From Eledone cirrhosa (lineage: Eukaryota), in assembly GCA_964016885.1 (NCBI GenBank), contig OZ024746.1, positions 25,234,001-25,298,000 of the forward strand: DNA of 64,000 nt, written 5' to 3'. Each line of letters begins with the position of its first letter. The first letter of the stretch is position 1. The position numbers were made by a program, and so were the translations under genes. This document shows positions 55,951-64,000 of the stretch, piece by piece. The notes under the pieces were generated by a model. It was not told where the DNA came from and did not search any database. It saw only the letters and a program-made list of their open reading frames with translations.

Positions 55951-56208
55951 TATATATATGTGAGTCCTTAGCCATTCAACAAAAAAAAAAAAAGAGATCG
56001 ATTACCAGACTTTCAAAAAAAGCCGGTGTCAGCTGTCAGTAAAAGAATATATAATAATTATTTTTTATATATACCACTAGAACCTTCTGCCACTGATAGT
56101 GACGGGCTGATAAGCTAATTTAATACGACTGATACTTCGTCAAGAAAGGCACTTGTAGCTAGCTAGCTCTATAACCACAGTATATTTTATTTTAGATACG
56201 AGAAGAAA

Positions 56209-56552
56209 ATGTCAGAGCCGACAATCAGCGAACATGTTTCTAAAAATCCTGCTATAGACTGTCATACCAATATTACAACTACAGAAATGCATACAGCAGG
56301 GGAACCACTAAGAATCGTAGAAACTGGGTTCCCGCCAATAGAAGGGAAAACCATTTTAGATAAAAGGAGATATGTTCAAATGAATCTTGATTCGTACCGA
56401 AGATTTTTGATATATGAACCTCGAGGACATTATGATATGTACGGTGCCCTTCTGATTGAACCTGACATACCCTCGGCTGACATTGGGGTCTTGTTTATGC
56501 ACAACGGAGGTTTCAGTACCATGTGTGGACATGCGGTGATTGCTTTAGGAAG
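56209..56552 (+). CDS. L3HYPDH: Proline-racemase-family enzyme (trans-3-hydroxy-L-proline dehydratase-like), coding exon 1
   Basis: EMHTAGEPLRIV, EPRGHYDMYGALL, FMHNGGFSTMCGHAVIALGR (catalytic MCGH); AG|gtaggt donor phase 2; acceptor tttag at 56195 upstream of the ATG. Confidence 0.93.
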
Positions 56553-56583
56553 GTAGGTTGTATCTGTTTCTGAACATCTAAAC

Positions 56584-58260: not shown

Positions 58261-58604
58261 CAATTCATTATCTTCCTCTCTCTCTGAATGATAGATACTC
58301 CACTCATCCACCAAGACATTTCCTTTTCTTTCTGTCCAGTCATCTAGTTGCTCCATATTCATCACTCATGTCTCACTCCCATAAACCATAGCACTTCTAA
58401 CATATGCAGCATACACAATTGCTTTCCATTCTGTCCAGCTTTCTCTGCTGCTCCATGTACATCACCTATGTCTAGTTCCCATAAATCATGGTACTTTTTA
58501 CACATACGGCTTACACCTTTCCCTTCTATTTTTTCCAACCTTCCCTGCTACTCCATGTTCATCACAGAACACAACAAAGCTAATTATTTTTTCTACTCCA
58601 AAAG

Positions 58605-58765
58605 ATATGCTGTTGATAAAGGTTATGTGAAAGCAATAACCACTCCAGAAACTCAAGTGAATATCCAGTGTCCATGTGGATTGGTTAAGACCTACGTTTC
58701 CTATAACGATGGACAGTCTGGTTCTGTTAGATTCCACAGTGTTCCCGCATTTGTACATTCTAGAG
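58605..58765 (+). CDS. L3HYPDH: L3HYPDH-like coding exon 2 (YAVDKGYVKAITTPETQVNIQCPCGLVKTYV...VRFHSVPAFVHSR)
   Basis: CPCGLV and RFHSVPAF are characteristic of animal L3HYPDH; aaag| acceptor phase 2, G|gtaagg donor phase 1. Confidence 0.92.
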
Positions 58766-60114
58766 GTAAGGACAATTATCATAACACCATTCATTCCACC
58801 AAGTATTCTGACATACTATACACACCTCACACTGTTTGTGGCATTCAGTTAAGTAGCTTTAACAAGAAACAATCGTCATTGTTGTCATCAAACATCCATT
58901 TTTCTATACTAGAATGGGTTGTCCCAGACCAATTCAGTACTTAATTGGAACTACTATTCTCTCAGACAGGCTGGGCATCAAAACTCACCTACACATGTTT
59001 TGGCAGTGTTTCTACAGCTAAATGCCCTTCCCATCACCAACCACTTTACAGAGTGTACTGTATGCTTTTTCTATCATGTCACCAATACTAGGAAGGTTGT
59101 CATATTCTAGACAAAACAGAAGAGACCTGTCCACTCATTGTTTGGCTTGGTTTCTATGGCTGGATGCCCTTCCTGACACCAACCACAATAAAAAGCATCC
59201 ATTTCACCCCGTAAACTGGTAGAGCTGGTACCACGATAAAAACACCCAGTTCACCCTATAAAGTCATAATGTTGGTGCATTGATAAAAGCATCCACTACA
59301 CTCTGTAAAATGAAGGTGCTGGTGCCACAATAAAAACACCCAGTACACTCTGTAAAGTGGTAGTGCTGGTGCCACAATAAAATGTGCCCAGTAAATTCTG
59401 TAAAGTAGTAGTGCTGATGTTTGGAGAAAATACATTCAGTACACTCTGTAAAGTGGTAGTGCTGGTGCCATGACAAAAGCACCCAGTATGTTCCAGAAAG
59501 TGGTAGTGTTGGTGCCATGATAAAAGCATGCAGTGCATCATTCATAAACGATGATGTACTGCATGCTTTTATCATGGCACCATCCTGTATCCAGTCCATC
59601 CTGTAAAATGATTAGCATTAGGAAGGGCATCCAACCATAGTAACTTTGCCAAAATGGAGTGTATGAGTAGGATGTTGTCTGACCTGACTAGTATCAGAAC
59701 ACGACAACATATCTAATCAATGCAAAGATGTAAAAGGAAGATGATGATAATGAGCATAATGATGATGGTGGTGGTGGTGATGATGATGATGATGATGGTG
59801 ATGATGTACATTTATTCATACACACTTTTATTTAGTAGGAAATCATATACAAAAAGTTGGGTGCCAAGATAGATGTTGACTTATCAACCTTTATCTTAGT
59901 AAGAATAAATAAAGTATTAAGAACAGTCTGTCAATGATATTGTATGTCATAGATACGAATACAATTGGACATGGCATTTGTCAACAGATATTTACAGTCA
60001 TGTCTGGTAATATATCATATTGTTATAGGCCTCAAAGTACAGTGGAACTGTTAGTAAACTGAAACTATTTTTCCCATAATAAATATTGAGAGAGAAATAC
60101 AATAAGAGAGAGAT

Positions 60115-62455
60115 TGTGTATCACCTTTAGGTGACTCTGATCATGCTATGATCATTGCCAATCTATCCCTCATGGGCAGTTACAAGAACCACAACCATCT
60201 CCAAACTGCTCACTTTGACTTGAATAAAGCAGACTGGAACTGTTACTGCACCGAGTTGCAACGGCCAAACTGGCTTGAGTTCTACGACTCTGGAGATGTC
60301 AACACTGTACTCCAGAACATCCTGAGCTCAATATGGACAGCATGTGCAGCATCGGTGCCACGTAAGTGGAAAAAACATCCCAAAAGTGCAATTTGGGAGA
60401 CTGCAGCAGTCCGTCTTGCCAGAAAAAAATGGCGCAATGCTGAACGTGAGTACAAACTTCACAAATCAGACATTAATAGGAAGAGGCGAAATAGATCGTC
60501 CAACCACCTCAAACAGGTGACAAAAAAGGCAGTGCTTCAATTTGAGCAGCGCATAGCAACCAGCCCTGACAGTAAGGTGTTCTGGAAGTATGTTCACTCA
60601 AAGCAGAGGCCTCACTCTCCAGTTGGTCCTCTTCACAACCCCCTCACAAGCCAGGTTACTGACGACCTCAAGGAATGCGCAGAGCTCATTGCTGAACGCT
60701 ATGCAGGCATTTTCACTATTGAAGACCAGAGTGTACCATCTCCACCACCTATGACACCGGACTCTATTACAACCATGGAATTTACACCTACAATGCTGCG
60801 ACGTCACCTAAAAAATAAACGCAACCATGCCTCTCCTGGTCTTGATGGTGTTACGTACCTGCTTCTTAAACGTAGTGGGTACTACCTTCTGCACCAGTTA
60901 ACACGCTTCTTCCAATTCTGTCTGAACAACGGTGCTACTCCAGAACAGTGGAAAACTGCTAGTGTCATTCCTCTGTTCAAAAAGGGTGACCGCACATCAC
61001 CTGTGAACTATCGTCCAGTCAGTCTTACTAGTTGCATTGCCAAACTGATGGAATCCTGTGTCAGAGAAACACTTAGGAACTTCTGGAACTCTCACAGTCT
61101 TATCCGGCCCTCGCAATTTGGATTTATCACCAACTCCAGCTGCTGTGATCAACTTATCGAGTTTCTTGAAGACATCACCCGGATCACTGATGGCGGCTCA
61201 TGGGTGGATGTTGTTTACCTTGACTTTGCGAAAGCTTTCAATTCTGTGCCACACAAAAGGCTTATGGTAAAACTCTCTGCAATGGGTGTGAAGGATGATC
61301 TTTTTAACTGGTTGAAGTCCTTCATTTTCAGTCGAAGAGAGGTAGTCACGGTTCTGGGACAGCATTCCTCACCATATGAGATGTCATCTGGTGTACAACA
61401 GGGATCTGTTCTTGGCCCCCTTTTGTTTGTGGCATATATTAATGACATAGATGCAAACTTAAAAAATTCCACAGTACTAAAGTACGCAGATGACATCAAG
61501 CTGTACCTTGAGATAAAAAGGACAGATCCTGAACACTACAGATCTTGCTTGCAGTCTGACCTGGACACAATGCAACAATGGATCTCAGACTGGCAACTCA
61601 AGCTAGCTGTGGACAAGTGCACCACCATGCATTTTGGGAGTAAAAACCCAGCGTCCACATACTCCCTTCACAGCAATAATATCAAGAAGTCTTCTTGTGA
61701 ACGTGACCTGAGCATTACGGTCAGCAGCGATTTGCGTTGGACGAAGCACGTCTCTAAAATTGTCAAGAGGGCCGAGGGTGTCTTAGCATCACTCAGCAAG
61801 ACCTTTGTCAGCCGCTCTCCAGCTATCTATTTAAGGCTGTACATGGCTATGGTGCGGCCACACTTAGAATTTGCATCACCAATCTGGAACCCCTATCTTG
61901 CTCAGAACATTGACCGCCTGGAAACTGTTCAGAGACATGCAACCAAGCGAATACCCTCCATCAGGCATCTACCATACTCTGAGCACCTTGCTTCCCTGGC
62001 CATGGATACATTGAAGCTCCGACGCCTGGCAACTGACTTGGTAAACACCCACAAAATTGTTAACCATCTTGCCAACAACAACTCTGAGTACTTTTTTGAT
62101 TTCCATGTGTCTAACACATGTGGGTATGCCCACAAAGTCAGAAAACAGCACAGCTCCCATGACTTTCGGAAACATTTTTTCACGCTCAGAGTTGCTGAAG
62201 CATGGAACAAACTACCTGCATCGGTTGTTAGCTGTCGAGACACTGCATCCTTTAAGGCCTCCATGCTTCCCCAGATTCGCCAACACTACACCTAATGTTC
62301 CCGCTCCATACACATACACACATGTATATCATGACTCATACACTATTCACTTCCCTGACATTTGTGTATTATTCTATGTACTATACATGCACCTTTGACG
62401 AGTTGTATTGCACCTGAGCACTGTACACAATAATTTCATTATTTCATTATTATTA
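60115..62455 (+). mobile_element. 5'-truncated LINE (CR1/L2/Jockey group) inserted in L3HYPDH intron 2
   Basis: Begins in the APE C-terminus (SPLGDSDHAMI), has an uninterrupted RT ORF, a 3' UTR and a (CATT/ATT)n tail. Confidence 0.93.
60148..62295 (+). CDS. LINE ORF2 reverse transcriptase, 715 aa (endonuclease mostly missing)
   Basis: SPGLDG, PLFKKGD..NYRPVSLTS, QFGF, YLDFAKAFNSVPH, GVQQGSVLGPLLF, YADD, RPHLEFASPIWNP. Confidence 0.95.
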   Translation: MIIANLSLMGSYKNHNHLQTAHFDLNKADWNCYCTELQRPNWLEFYDSGDVNTVLQNILSSIWTACAASVPRKWKKHPKSAIWETAAVRLARKKWRNAEREYKLHKSDINRKRRNRSSNHLKQVTKKAVLQFEQRIATSPDSKVFWKYVHSKQRPHSPVGPLHNPLTSQVTDDLKECAELIAERYAGIFTIEDQSVPSPPPMTPDSITTMEFTPTMLRRHLKNKRNHASPGLDGVTYLLLKRSGYYLLHQLTRFFQFCLNNGATPEQWKTASVIPLFKKGDRTSPVNYRPVSLTSCIAKLMESCVRETLRNFWNSHSLIRPSQFGFITNSSCCDQLIEFLEDITRITDGGSWVDVVYLDFAKAFNSVPHKRLMVKLSAMGVKDDLFNWLKSFIFSRREVVTVLGQHSSPYEMSSGVQQGSVLGPLLFVAYINDIDANLKNSTVLKYADDIKLYLEIKRTDPEHYRSCLQSDLDTMQQWISDWQLKLAVDKCTTMHFGSKNPASTYSLHSNNIKKSSCERDLSITVSSDLRWTKHVSKIVKRAEGVLASLSKTFVSRSPAIYLRLYMAMVRPHLEFASPIWNPYLAQNIDRLETVQRHATKRIPSIRHLPYSEHLASLAMDTLKLRRLATDLVNTHKIVNHLANNNSEYFFDFHVSNTCGYAHKVRKQHSSHDFRKHFFTLRVAEAWNKLPASVVSCRDTASFKASMLPQIRQHYT

Positions 62456-62775
62456 AAAGATAGATAGATATCACCATAGTAACACACTAGATAGCAAGTG
62501 ACACTTTCCCTGCCAACCTTTGTTGCTGGCTTGTGTGTTCGTTTCTCGAGACACCATTTGTCACATGAGATGTTTTATGTTCAGAAAAATTGTTTGTGAA
62601 CCAATTTGTTTGGGATGAGAGGTGTTCATGAACCAAGGTACCACTGTGCAGGTGACACACAAGAGAAATATGATGGAATGGACCTCTGCCAGTTTCAACA
62701 ATGTGTGTTCCAGTTGTTCAATCAAGAAGGCAACTTTGTGAAATCAATGTATAAGTGGGTAAGCATTTCACAGAC

Positions 62776-62883
62776 ACGTGTACTTCGGCAGTACATATAC
62801 TAAAGTTGGAATGATACAGAGAAGATTAGCAAGGCTCCTGCGCAAAGATAATACATAAAATTCCTGAAGCATTCCCTATTTTT
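62776..62883 (+). pseudogene. RNU6: U6 snRNA-derived copy (degenerate, full length)
   Basis: CTTCGGCAGTACATATACTAAAGTTGGAATGATACAGAGAAGATTAGCAAGGCTCCTGCGCAAAGATAATACATAAAATTCCTGAAGCATTCCCTATTTTT aligns to U6. The ACAGAGA box and AGC triad are kept; the ISL and CpG sites are mutated. Confidence 0.92.
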
Positions 62884-62939
62884 AGTCCTACTCATGCTAG
62901 CATGGAAAATGGACGTTAAACGATGATGATGATAATGAT
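62884..62939 (+). mobile_element. RTE/SINE 3' tail directly abutting the U6 copy
   Basis: ACTCATGCTAGCATGGAAAATGGACGTTAAACGATGATGATGAT; the same tail occurs near 28055, 34410 and 34735. Confidence 0.85.
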
Positions 62940-63349
62940 CCAATGTACCACAATATGTGATATGACTGGTCCTTTGAATTACAGGTACAGTCCATCTGAT
63001 AGGCTTCCGAACAGTTTAAGTCTACCAAATTCCCCTCCTGAGGCTTGATTCAACCTGTGGATATGATAAAAGACACTTGTCCAAGATTCCATGCAGTATA
63101 TTTTAGTGTATTTCATACAGTGACAAATTTAGACTTAGAGAGGCCCCTACTTTTGGAGGCTCCATAGAAAAAGATTATACCAGTGGCATCACAACAAAAA
63201 ATACTTAATCCACCCTGTAAGGTGCTCATGCTTGTGCGATAACCAAAAAATGCCCTGTCCCTCCTGTAAGGTGGTTGTATTGGTGACATGACAAAAACAC
63301 CAGTCCACCCTACAAGCACTCAGTTGACATATAATTCAATATTTTTTAG

Positions 63350-63502
63350 ATATCCAGATAAATGTCCCAAAGTTTGGAACCATAACCTTGGATGTCAGCT
63401 ATGGAGGAGCATTTTATGCAATTTTACCTGCAAGTCAGCTTGGACTTGATCTCAGCAAATCAAAGTTCCGAGAAATTGTTTCAGCAGCTACTTGTGTAAC
63501 TG
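63350..63502 (+). CDS. L3HYPDH: L3HYPDH-like coding exon 3 (DIQINVPKFGTITLDVSYGGAFYAILPASQLGLDL...); gene continues beyond the window
   Basis: Family motif D(V/I)xYGGAFYA; tttttag| acceptor phase 1, G|gtaaga donor. Confidence 0.93.
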
Positions 63503-64000
63503 GTAAGAAAAATTAACTCTCAATATCCTCCAATGATTTGCCAGAAAATGTATAAAAACAGGTTTAATTTAAATGTATCTTCACTACTGGACAGATCAAT
63601 GTGAAAATTTGTAATATTATCTTTTAACATTCTGTAATGGTTTAGGAGAAAATGTCTAAAAGGAGGTTTGCTGATTCAAATGTTTATAGTAACTTTACTA
63701 GTGAACAGATCGTTATGAAAATTTGCAGTATTACAATAAAGACTTCAATTTTTAATGGGATGTAGTCATAGTGCTGTCATATTCTTTTCAAGAATGTCTT
63801 GCTTATGTGATTTCATTTGATACAAAAAAATATTGCAAAACGGTTACATACTAGCTAGAGTGTTAAGCTTATGATTGTAAAGTTGTGAGTTTGATTCCAA
63901 TATCAAGCAGCACATTGTATCCTTGAGCAAAACACTTTATTTCATATTATTTCAGTCCAATCAGCTAGAAAAAATTAGCAGCATTGACACTGGTGCCAAG

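What the first reader, a model, noticed from the sequence alone, without database searches (positions are those of the whole stretch)
62776..62939. U6 snRNA fused directly to the RTE/SINE 3' tail: retro-chimera or U6-headed SINE
Seen: a full-length degenerate U6 ends at its T-tract and runs within a few bases into CATGCTAGCATGGAAAATGGACGTTAAAC(GAT)n, the tail shared by RTE LINE ends and SINEs in this window, in the same orientation. Established: U6/LINE-1 chimeras joined at the U6 3' oligo-U are known in mammals, and snRNA-headed SINEs exist in crocodilians. An RTE-driven U6 chimera in a probable mollusc would extend this. Many copies with the same junction would mean a new U6-derived SINE family. 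No TSD was found.
Basis: partly seen in the sequence, partly recalled or inferred. Interest (0 to 1): 0.75.

Follow-up and report, generated by a model that had tools for sequence, protein, structure and literature searches.

The report
One-off U6–LINE hairpin-tail retrocopy
A decayed copy of the U6 splicing RNA is fused to the last 55 bases of a jumping gene and sits as one piece inside an older repeat; it is one of dozens of such fusions in this genome, likely made one at a time when the jumping gene's copying enzyme picked up U6, and not a new repeat family.

Summary
The fusion is real. U6 nt 9-107 (Rfam 89.7 bits) ends in T5, then one A, then only the terminal hairpin and (GAT)n of an RTE-like LINE. 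The piece splits an older repeat and replaces about 21 bp of it, with no target duplication, so it entered as one unit. It is not a SINE: 3 loci in 3 Gb share the junction, and they come from two different U6 gene types. Of 115 U6 3' ends read, 74 are fused to LINE/SINE pieces of several families and lengths. The shared junction is a general start-point hotspot: 26 of 79 consecutive copies of this tail are hairpin-only, and a fourth U6 joins another subfamily at the same base. Two full-length tRNA copies with trailers are fused to such tails. Template jumping (about 55%) is slightly favoured over RNA ligation (about 35%); neither is shown. U6/RTE chimeras are published for lizard and, tentatively, opossum. 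My searches found no paper describing them in a mollusc. The scan has noted this kind before, in this genome and others.

The parts
62705..62783 (+). Left half of an older host repeat (probably a SINE); its last 4 bases also match U6 nt 1-4 (5' microhomology)
   Evidence: BLAST to window paralogues; alignment with 8 paralogues
62784..62883 (+). U6 snRNA copy, nt 9-107, gene type A (T10, A24), ending in T5; 11 substitutions and 1 insertion
   Evidence: Rfam; alignment to the two U6 gene types
62884..62884 (+). Single A at the junction; not the usual parent base (C, or T by decay); origin unexplained
   Evidence: present in 3 of 4 U6 joins at this base
62885..62921 (+). Terminal hairpin (62885-62914) and spacer of an RTE-like LINE 3' end; predicted protein-recognition element
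   Evidence: fold (z -0.45, not significant alone); inner-stem covariation; same tail variant follows a LINE ORF end in L185, L119, L132
62922..62939 (+). (GAT)n tail; the last GAT (62937-62939) also matches the host repeat (3' microhomology)
   Evidence: sequence
62937..62987 (+). Right half of the host repeat, resuming about 21 bp after the left half ends (target-site deletion)
63343..63504 (+). Downstream exon-like frame of a proline-racemase-family gene; the chimera lies in a probable intron on the same strand
   Evidence: PF05544, 8e-12; upstream frame 56167-56553 hits the same family

Best explanation
This is a decayed, promoterless U6/LINE chimeric retrocopy that sits as one unit in an older repeat, likely made in a single event by the protein of an RTE-like LINE. 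Inferred steps: (1) The LINE protein bound a short RNA, or the 3' part of its RNA, through the terminal hairpin. (2) It primed reverse transcription at a GAT in the target using the (GAT)n tail. (3) At the hairpin base, a general stopping point for this family, the cDNA continued onto the oligo-U end of U6. This was most likely an end-to-end template jump (about 55%); the alternative is that U6 had been ligated to a cut tail RNA beforehand (about 35%). (4) It stopped at U6 nt 9 and was joined to the left flank through a 4-base match, losing about 21 bp of target. The copy has no U6 promoter and has not multiplied. The few look-alikes are likely independent events at the same hotspot. Shown: anatomy, one-unit insertion, copy number, two U6 sources, hotspot. 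Not shown: the enzymatic steps.
For: One unit: both flanks are collinear halves of one repeat, with about 21 columns missing against 8 paralogues. Few copies: 3 loci at <=3 mismatches in a 30-nt junction pattern; 4 of 40 scored BLAST hits cover both parts. Independence: ours is U6 type A at 2 diagnostic sites; L002, L003 and L004 are type B; the differences shared with them are at CpG sites only. Both types exist as genes with upstream elements (L005, L006; tandem array L013-L030). Hotspot: 38 of 55 loci of a pattern that disfavours the parent body start exactly at the hairpin base (read by eye). In 79 consecutive rows of 541 exact tail matches, 53 carry the body and 26 are hairpin-only, 5 clearly at the stem base. 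L305 joins U6 to another subfamily at the same base. Genome-wide habit: 74 of 115 U6 ends read are fused to LINE/SINE pieces (49 of 85; 25 of 30). For a jump: full-length tRNA-Gly copies with trailers are fused in sense to two tail families (L111 with a 12-bp duplication; L330). U6 is joined at or near the 5' start of SINEs in 11 of 85 sites. The second tail family shows variable extra bases at its junction. An R2 enzyme adds mostly untemplated A, and its jumping needs a matching overhang (PMC8857657, passages), which would favour U-ended RNAs (inference).
Against: No target duplication at this locus, so the one-event reading rests on host collinearity. T5 is the commonest run outside the gene array (69, against 16 with T4 and 34 with T6 or more), which fits ligation of mature U6 (PMC6789731, passages). 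The extra A is not what untemplated A on cDNA would leave. The U6 half looks more decayed than the tail (12 of 100 against 1-2 of 38), though not significantly (p 0.11-0.35). Type A rests on two sites in a 12%-diverged copy, one near the 5' junction. The hairpin is no more stable than shuffles. Many of the 26 hairpin-only copies are inflated by (TA)n targets matching my pattern. The RTE clade was not tested by a tree.
Confidence: 0.85

Rival explanations
1. Same chimera, but made by RNA ligation: an RtcB-type ligase joined mature U6 (cyclic phosphate) to a tail RNA cut at the hairpin base, and the fused RNA was then retrotransposed. This differs from the best explanation only in the joining step.
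For: Shown for U6/L1 in human cells (PMC6789731, passages). T5 is the modal run. A precise start at the stem base would suit a defined cut. L305 has a clean join. An earlier scan note (e1-9544130, untested here) claims joins at ribozyme cut sites in this genome.
Against: tRNA copies with trailers (L111, L330) and SINE 5' starts are also joined; by established chemistry these ends carry 3'-OH and 5'-triphosphate, which RtcB does not join (for the requirement). Extra junction bases in the second tail family.
Confidence: 0.35
2. A very small U6-headed SINE: one founder chimera was transcribed from outside and re-copied, giving the three identical junctions.
For: Three loci share T-run, A and tail subfamily. 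The unit has the head-plus-LINE-tail layout of a SINE. An Octopus vulgaris annotation lists 'U' and 'U-L1' SINE families in a table (PMC13282606, passages and one supplement row; sequences not seen).
Against: Two U6 gene types and no shared non-CpG change; three different U6 5' ends (nt 8/9, 13, 16); U6-free copies start at the same base; snRNA genes have no reported internal promoter (PMC4494074, part 1 read).
Confidence: 0.06
3. Two steps: a U6 pseudogene was there first, and a hairpin-only tail later inserted at its T-run.
For: Hairpin-only insertions are common and favour AT-rich sites. The U6 half is nominally more diverged (not significant).
Against: No duplication brackets the tail alone; host sequence resumes right after the tail with no U6 3' flank. 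Six U6 ends with this tail within 12 nt against 0.1-0.3 expected. L002 shows a 7-bp, 1-mismatch repeat around U6 plus tail.
Confidence: 0.05

Closest known systems
U6 chimeras with non-L1 LINEs and SINEs: platypus U6-L2 and U6-Mon-1, Anolis U6-RTEX-2, opossum U6-RTE_Mdo and RTESINE1 (Doucet et al. 2015, PMC4476161; section 10 and passages read)
   Same: 5'-trimmed U6 joined at its T-run, in sense, to a short LINE 3' piece; microsatellite tail; duplication small or absent; SINE partners too.
   Different: Invertebrate host (probably an octopus; inferred). A hairpin-only partner with a recurrent start base and a target deletion of about 21 bp; the passages read do not describe these.
Mammalian U6/L1 chimeric pseudogenes (PMC6789731, PMC11838501; passages read)
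   Same: U6 ending in 4-8 T joined to a 5'-truncated LINE; each a unique event that does not propagate.
   Different: L1 junctions show no preferred site and have 6-19 bp duplications. Their tRNA chimeras are mostly antisense halves; here two are full-length, sense and carry trailers.
SINEU of crocodilians (Kojima 2015, PMC4494074; part 1 of 5 read)
   Same: snRNA-derived sequence at the 5' end of a LINE-mobilised unit.
   Different: SINEU are amplified U1/U2-headed families tied to Tx1 elements; this unit has 3 look-alikes of mixed origin.
'U' and 'U-L1' SINE families listed for Octopus vulgaris (PMC13282606; passages and one supplement row)
   Same: snRNA-labelled short elements in an octopus; the two recent 'U-L1' insertions total 353 bp, close to twice a U6-plus-tail length.
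   Different: Table entries only; sequences not seen, so identity with these chimeras is untested.

Membership tests
U6/non-L1 LINE chimeric retropseudogene | U6 3' end with a short T-run joined in sense to a LINE 3' piece | tested here: met
   T5, one A, tail
U6/non-L1 LINE chimeric retropseudogene | Partner is the 3' end of an autonomous non-LTR element | tested here: met
   Same tail variant follows an ORF end in L185, L119, L132; a sister subfamily has RT and PHD; homologues are ~1000-1100 aa endonuclease-RT proteins
U6/non-L1 LINE chimeric retropseudogene | Inserted as one unit (shared duplication, or target truncation) | tested here: met
   No duplication; host repeat split with ~21 bp lost and short matches at both ends. 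Target truncation is a known outcome (PMC4494074)
U6/non-L1 LINE chimeric retropseudogene | No U6 gene promoter upstream; not self-propagating | tested here: met
   Upstream is host repeat without the octamer seen before L005 and L006 (a TATA-like word near -30 aligns to host sequence); 3 look-alikes of two U6 types
RTE clade (parent LINE) | RT groups with RTE in a phylogeny | tested here: inconclusive
   No reference RTE sequences were at hand; solved-structure hits are R2 and L1 only. The label rests on ORF size, microsatellite tail and C-terminal motifs recalled from memory
snRNA-headed SINE (SINEU-like) | Many copies with one uniform structure | tested here: not met
   3 loci; partner lengths 0-750 nt
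snRNA-headed SINE (SINEU-like) | Descent from one master (shared derived changes) | tested here: not met
   Two U6 types; only CpG changes shared
snRNA-headed SINE (SINEU-like) | LINE-derived 3' recognition tail | tested here: met
snRNA-headed SINE (SINEU-like) | Transcribed as a unit | not testable with these tools
   No RNA holder listed

The most novel reading that the evidence does not exclude
This genome's LINEs have a defined minimal 3' module, hairpin plus microsatellite, that is retrotransposed on its own from a fixed start base and is joined end-to-end to any oligo-U-ended Pol III transcript, including whole pre-tRNAs with trailers. That is a visible, repeatable route to SINE birth: U6 fusions are dead ends, tRNA fusions are ready-made proto-SINEs, and the same boundary is where LINE and SINE bodies swap tails.
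Probability: 0.4. Interest if true: 0.55.

Novelty: new member of a known kind. Interest (0 to 1): 0.3.

Why it matters
The locus itself is a fossil of a known kind. Its value is as a marker. It extends U6/LINE chimeras to an invertebrate and warns that identical junctions need not mean a SINE family. The hairpin-base hotspot and the sense, full-length pre-tRNA fusions give named sites at which ligation and template jumping make different predictions, and they bear on how SINEs acquire LINE tails.

Tried and rejected
SINE family: rejected. A fixed A as part of a master tail: rejected, because U6-free copies have A 18, T 17, G 3 at that place (the 18 include three head-bearing loci) and L305 lacks it. 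The Fisher tests (p 0.012, 0.047) were run before L305 and before seeing that the A in L111 may come from a tRNA trailer, so I do not rely on them. tRNA-like heads at L110, L112 and L153: not found by ARAGORN or Rfam, so not counted. Folding energy as support for the hairpin: not significant. Sequencing runs: no RNA holder listed. One run holds 0.97 of the sampled words of 62600-63100 but may be the source sample. Contigs were laid only on the tail and right flank; one relative's contig ends about 16 bases from the insertion edge, so no empty site was seen and the junction was not checked in laid reads. Rfam on 20 chimera loci found no hammerhead; this is a weak test, since a cut product holds only part of one. 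Ichiyanagi and Okada 2008 was not seen. PMC7245038, PMC11727581 and PMC9115989 (passages) gave background only. The exact source gene of the L111 trailer was not found: 3 of 13 matches were read.

Full report
Observation. Rfam places U6 at 62780-62883 (+), 89.7 bits. The genome holds two U6 gene types that differ at nt 6, 10 and 24: type A (L005, L006) and type B (a tandem array, L013-L030). The copy here aligns from nt 8/9 and is type A at nt 10 and 24, with 11 substitutions and one insertion. It ends in T5 (62879-62883). One A follows, then the tail from 62885, then (GAT)n to 62939.

One insertion. Both flanks are halves of one older repeat. Against 8 paralogues the left flank stops at 62783 and the right flank resumes at the GAT at 62937, with about 21 columns missing. 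There is no target duplication. There is a 4-base match between host and the U6 5' end and a 3-base match between host and tail. The upstream region is host repeat and lacks the octamer seen before the type A genes. The site lies between two proline-racemase-family coding frames on the same strand, so probably in an intron.

The partner. The tail variant here normally ends a longer body with C (or T by decay) before the hairpin. In L185, L119 and L132 that body follows the end of a LINE ORF. A sister subfamily carries RT and PHD domains, and homologues of its endonuclease are ~1000-1100 aa endonuclease-RT proteins, the size given for octopus RTE-2_OV (1109 aa; PMC9115989, passages). The RTE label is from these traits and recalled motifs; no tree was built. 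The first 30 bases fold as a two-stem hairpin whose base is the junction. The energy is not better than shuffles (z -0.45), but the inner stem is 97% paired in 53 distinct tails and one pair changes on both sides, A-U to U-G, in 18 of them. That is probably one inherited event, and the tails were chosen by me for clean alignment (59 aligned: ours, 48 of 82 off-centre tails and 10 from the sample).

Copy number. The window lies in a 3.0-Gb genome. A 30-nt junction pattern with up to 3 mismatches finds 3 loci: ours, L002 and L003. BLAST adds L004 with another junction (40 of 890 candidates scored). L002, L003 and L004 are type B; the only changes shared with ours are CpG decays. The 5' ends differ (nt 8/9, 16, 13, 1). 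So the identical junction arose at least twice.

Why the junction recurs. A pattern that disfavours the parent body gave 55 loci; by eye 38 start exactly at the hairpin base, 16 carry the body and 1 is unclear. A pattern blind to the start gave 541 matches; in the first 79 rows, 53 carry the body and 26 start within about -3 to +6 of the hairpin base, 5 clearly at it; I saw none starting in the 50 bases upstream. Part of the 26 is inflated by (TA)n targets that mimic my pattern. L305 joins U6 (T7) to a different subfamily at the same base, without the A. Different LINE and SINE bodies also meet the tail at this boundary.

Genome context. Exact patterns find 149 U6 3' ends: 16 with T4, 69 with T5, 64 with T6 or more, 30 of these in the gene array. 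This is a lower bound; our copy does not match the patterns. I read 115 (all T4 and T5, the first 30 of T6+). By motif and eye, 74 run straight into a sense LINE or SINE piece (49 of 85; 25 of 30): 18 this LINE group, 25 a second short tail, 16 SINEs, 5 a CR1-like tail, 10 others. The other 41 include 2 genes, short chance matches and unclassified flanks. For this LINE group the distance from junction to hairpin is 0, 1, 1, 1, 5, 9 and then 105 to 750 nt. The second tail is joined at nearly one point by both U6 types, with variable T-runs and extra bases. Six U6 ends have the hairpin within 12 nt against 0.10-0.31 expected.

Mechanism. Two full-length tRNA-Gly copies with trailers are fused in sense to tails: L111 to this tail inside a 12-bp duplication, and L330 to the second tail at a T-run that matches the flank of a genomic tRNA gene. 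Eleven of 85 sites join U6 at or near a SINE 5' start. By established chemistry such ends do not suit RtcB, which needs a cyclic phosphate and a 5'-OH (PMC6789731, passages). They do suit an end-to-end jump: an R2 enzyme adds mostly untemplated A and jumps on a matching overhang (PMC8857657, passages). Against this, T5 is the modal run and the start base is precise, both of which suit ligation, and the extra A fits neither model well. I put jumping at about 55%, ligation at about 35%; both may operate. The U6 half is nominally more decayed than the tail, not significantly.

What is known. Doucet et al. 2015 report U6 chimeras with L2 and Mon-1 in platypus, with RTEX-2 in Anolis and, tentatively, with RTE elements in opossum (PMC4476161, section 10 read; passages). 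Human U6/L1 chimeras are unique events that do not propagate, and human tRNA/L1 chimeras are mostly antisense halves (PMC11838501, passages). Searches for a cephalopod or mollusc report gave 0 papers and 1 unrelated paper; searches listed none by title or abstract. An Octopus vulgaris annotation lists 'U' and 'U-L1' SINE families in tables without sequences that I could see (PMC13282606); these may overlap the chimeras. The host here is probably an octopus; that rests on recalled repeats and earlier notes, not on a test. Earlier scan notes report the same kind in this genome and a similar fixed-point capture of U6 and pre-tRNAs in others; they are leads, not support.

Verdict. A real, single-event U6/LINE chimera; a new member of a known kind; not a SINE. 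Interest 0.3. The hairpin-only module and the sense pre-tRNA fusions are the parts worth following.

Noticed in passing
L037, L043, L046, L065, L088, L097, L299, L302, L306, L315, L326 and others: A second short tail (~65 nt) is the commonest U6 partner, 25 of 115 ends read, joined at nearly one point by both U6 types. It is the best candidate if any U6-headed family exists here.
   Followed up: partly
L111:1480-1610 (-) and L330:1380-1574 (-): Full-length tRNA-Gly copies with 3' trailers fused in sense to LINE-type tails; L111 has a 12-bp target duplication. Proto-SINE layout.
   Followed up: partly
L110, L112, L153: tRNA-like heads ending in a T-run, then A, then the same hairpin tail; not recognised by ARAGORN or Rfam.
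   Followed up: partly
L013-L030 (G000:C19:31.78-31.84 Mb): Tandem array of about 30 type B U6 genes at ~1.8-kb spacing; some units have a SINE in reverse just upstream.
   Followed up: no
L038, L054, L061, L064, L067, L072, L082, L090: U6 copies with an inverted U6 piece at their 5' side (fold-back or twin-priming-like), mostly with unclassified 3' flanks that end in (TA)n.
   Followed up: no
L113, L114, L145: The hairpin-only tail follows the same AT-rich upstream sequence at three loci, one with a different downstream flank; possibly a composite element.
   Followed up: no
window 60106-62455 (+): LINE copy with a 729-aa open RT frame (PF00078) and a CR1-like tail (label recalled), ending about 320 bp before the chimera.
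   Followed up: no
window 56167-56556, about 58600-58770, 63343-63504 (+): Exon-like frames of a proline-racemase-family gene (PF05544 for the first and last), the probable host gene.
   Followed up: partly
L225:898-2031 (-): The parent LINE group carries a PHD finger just after the RT domain; several homologues share this order.
   Followed up: no
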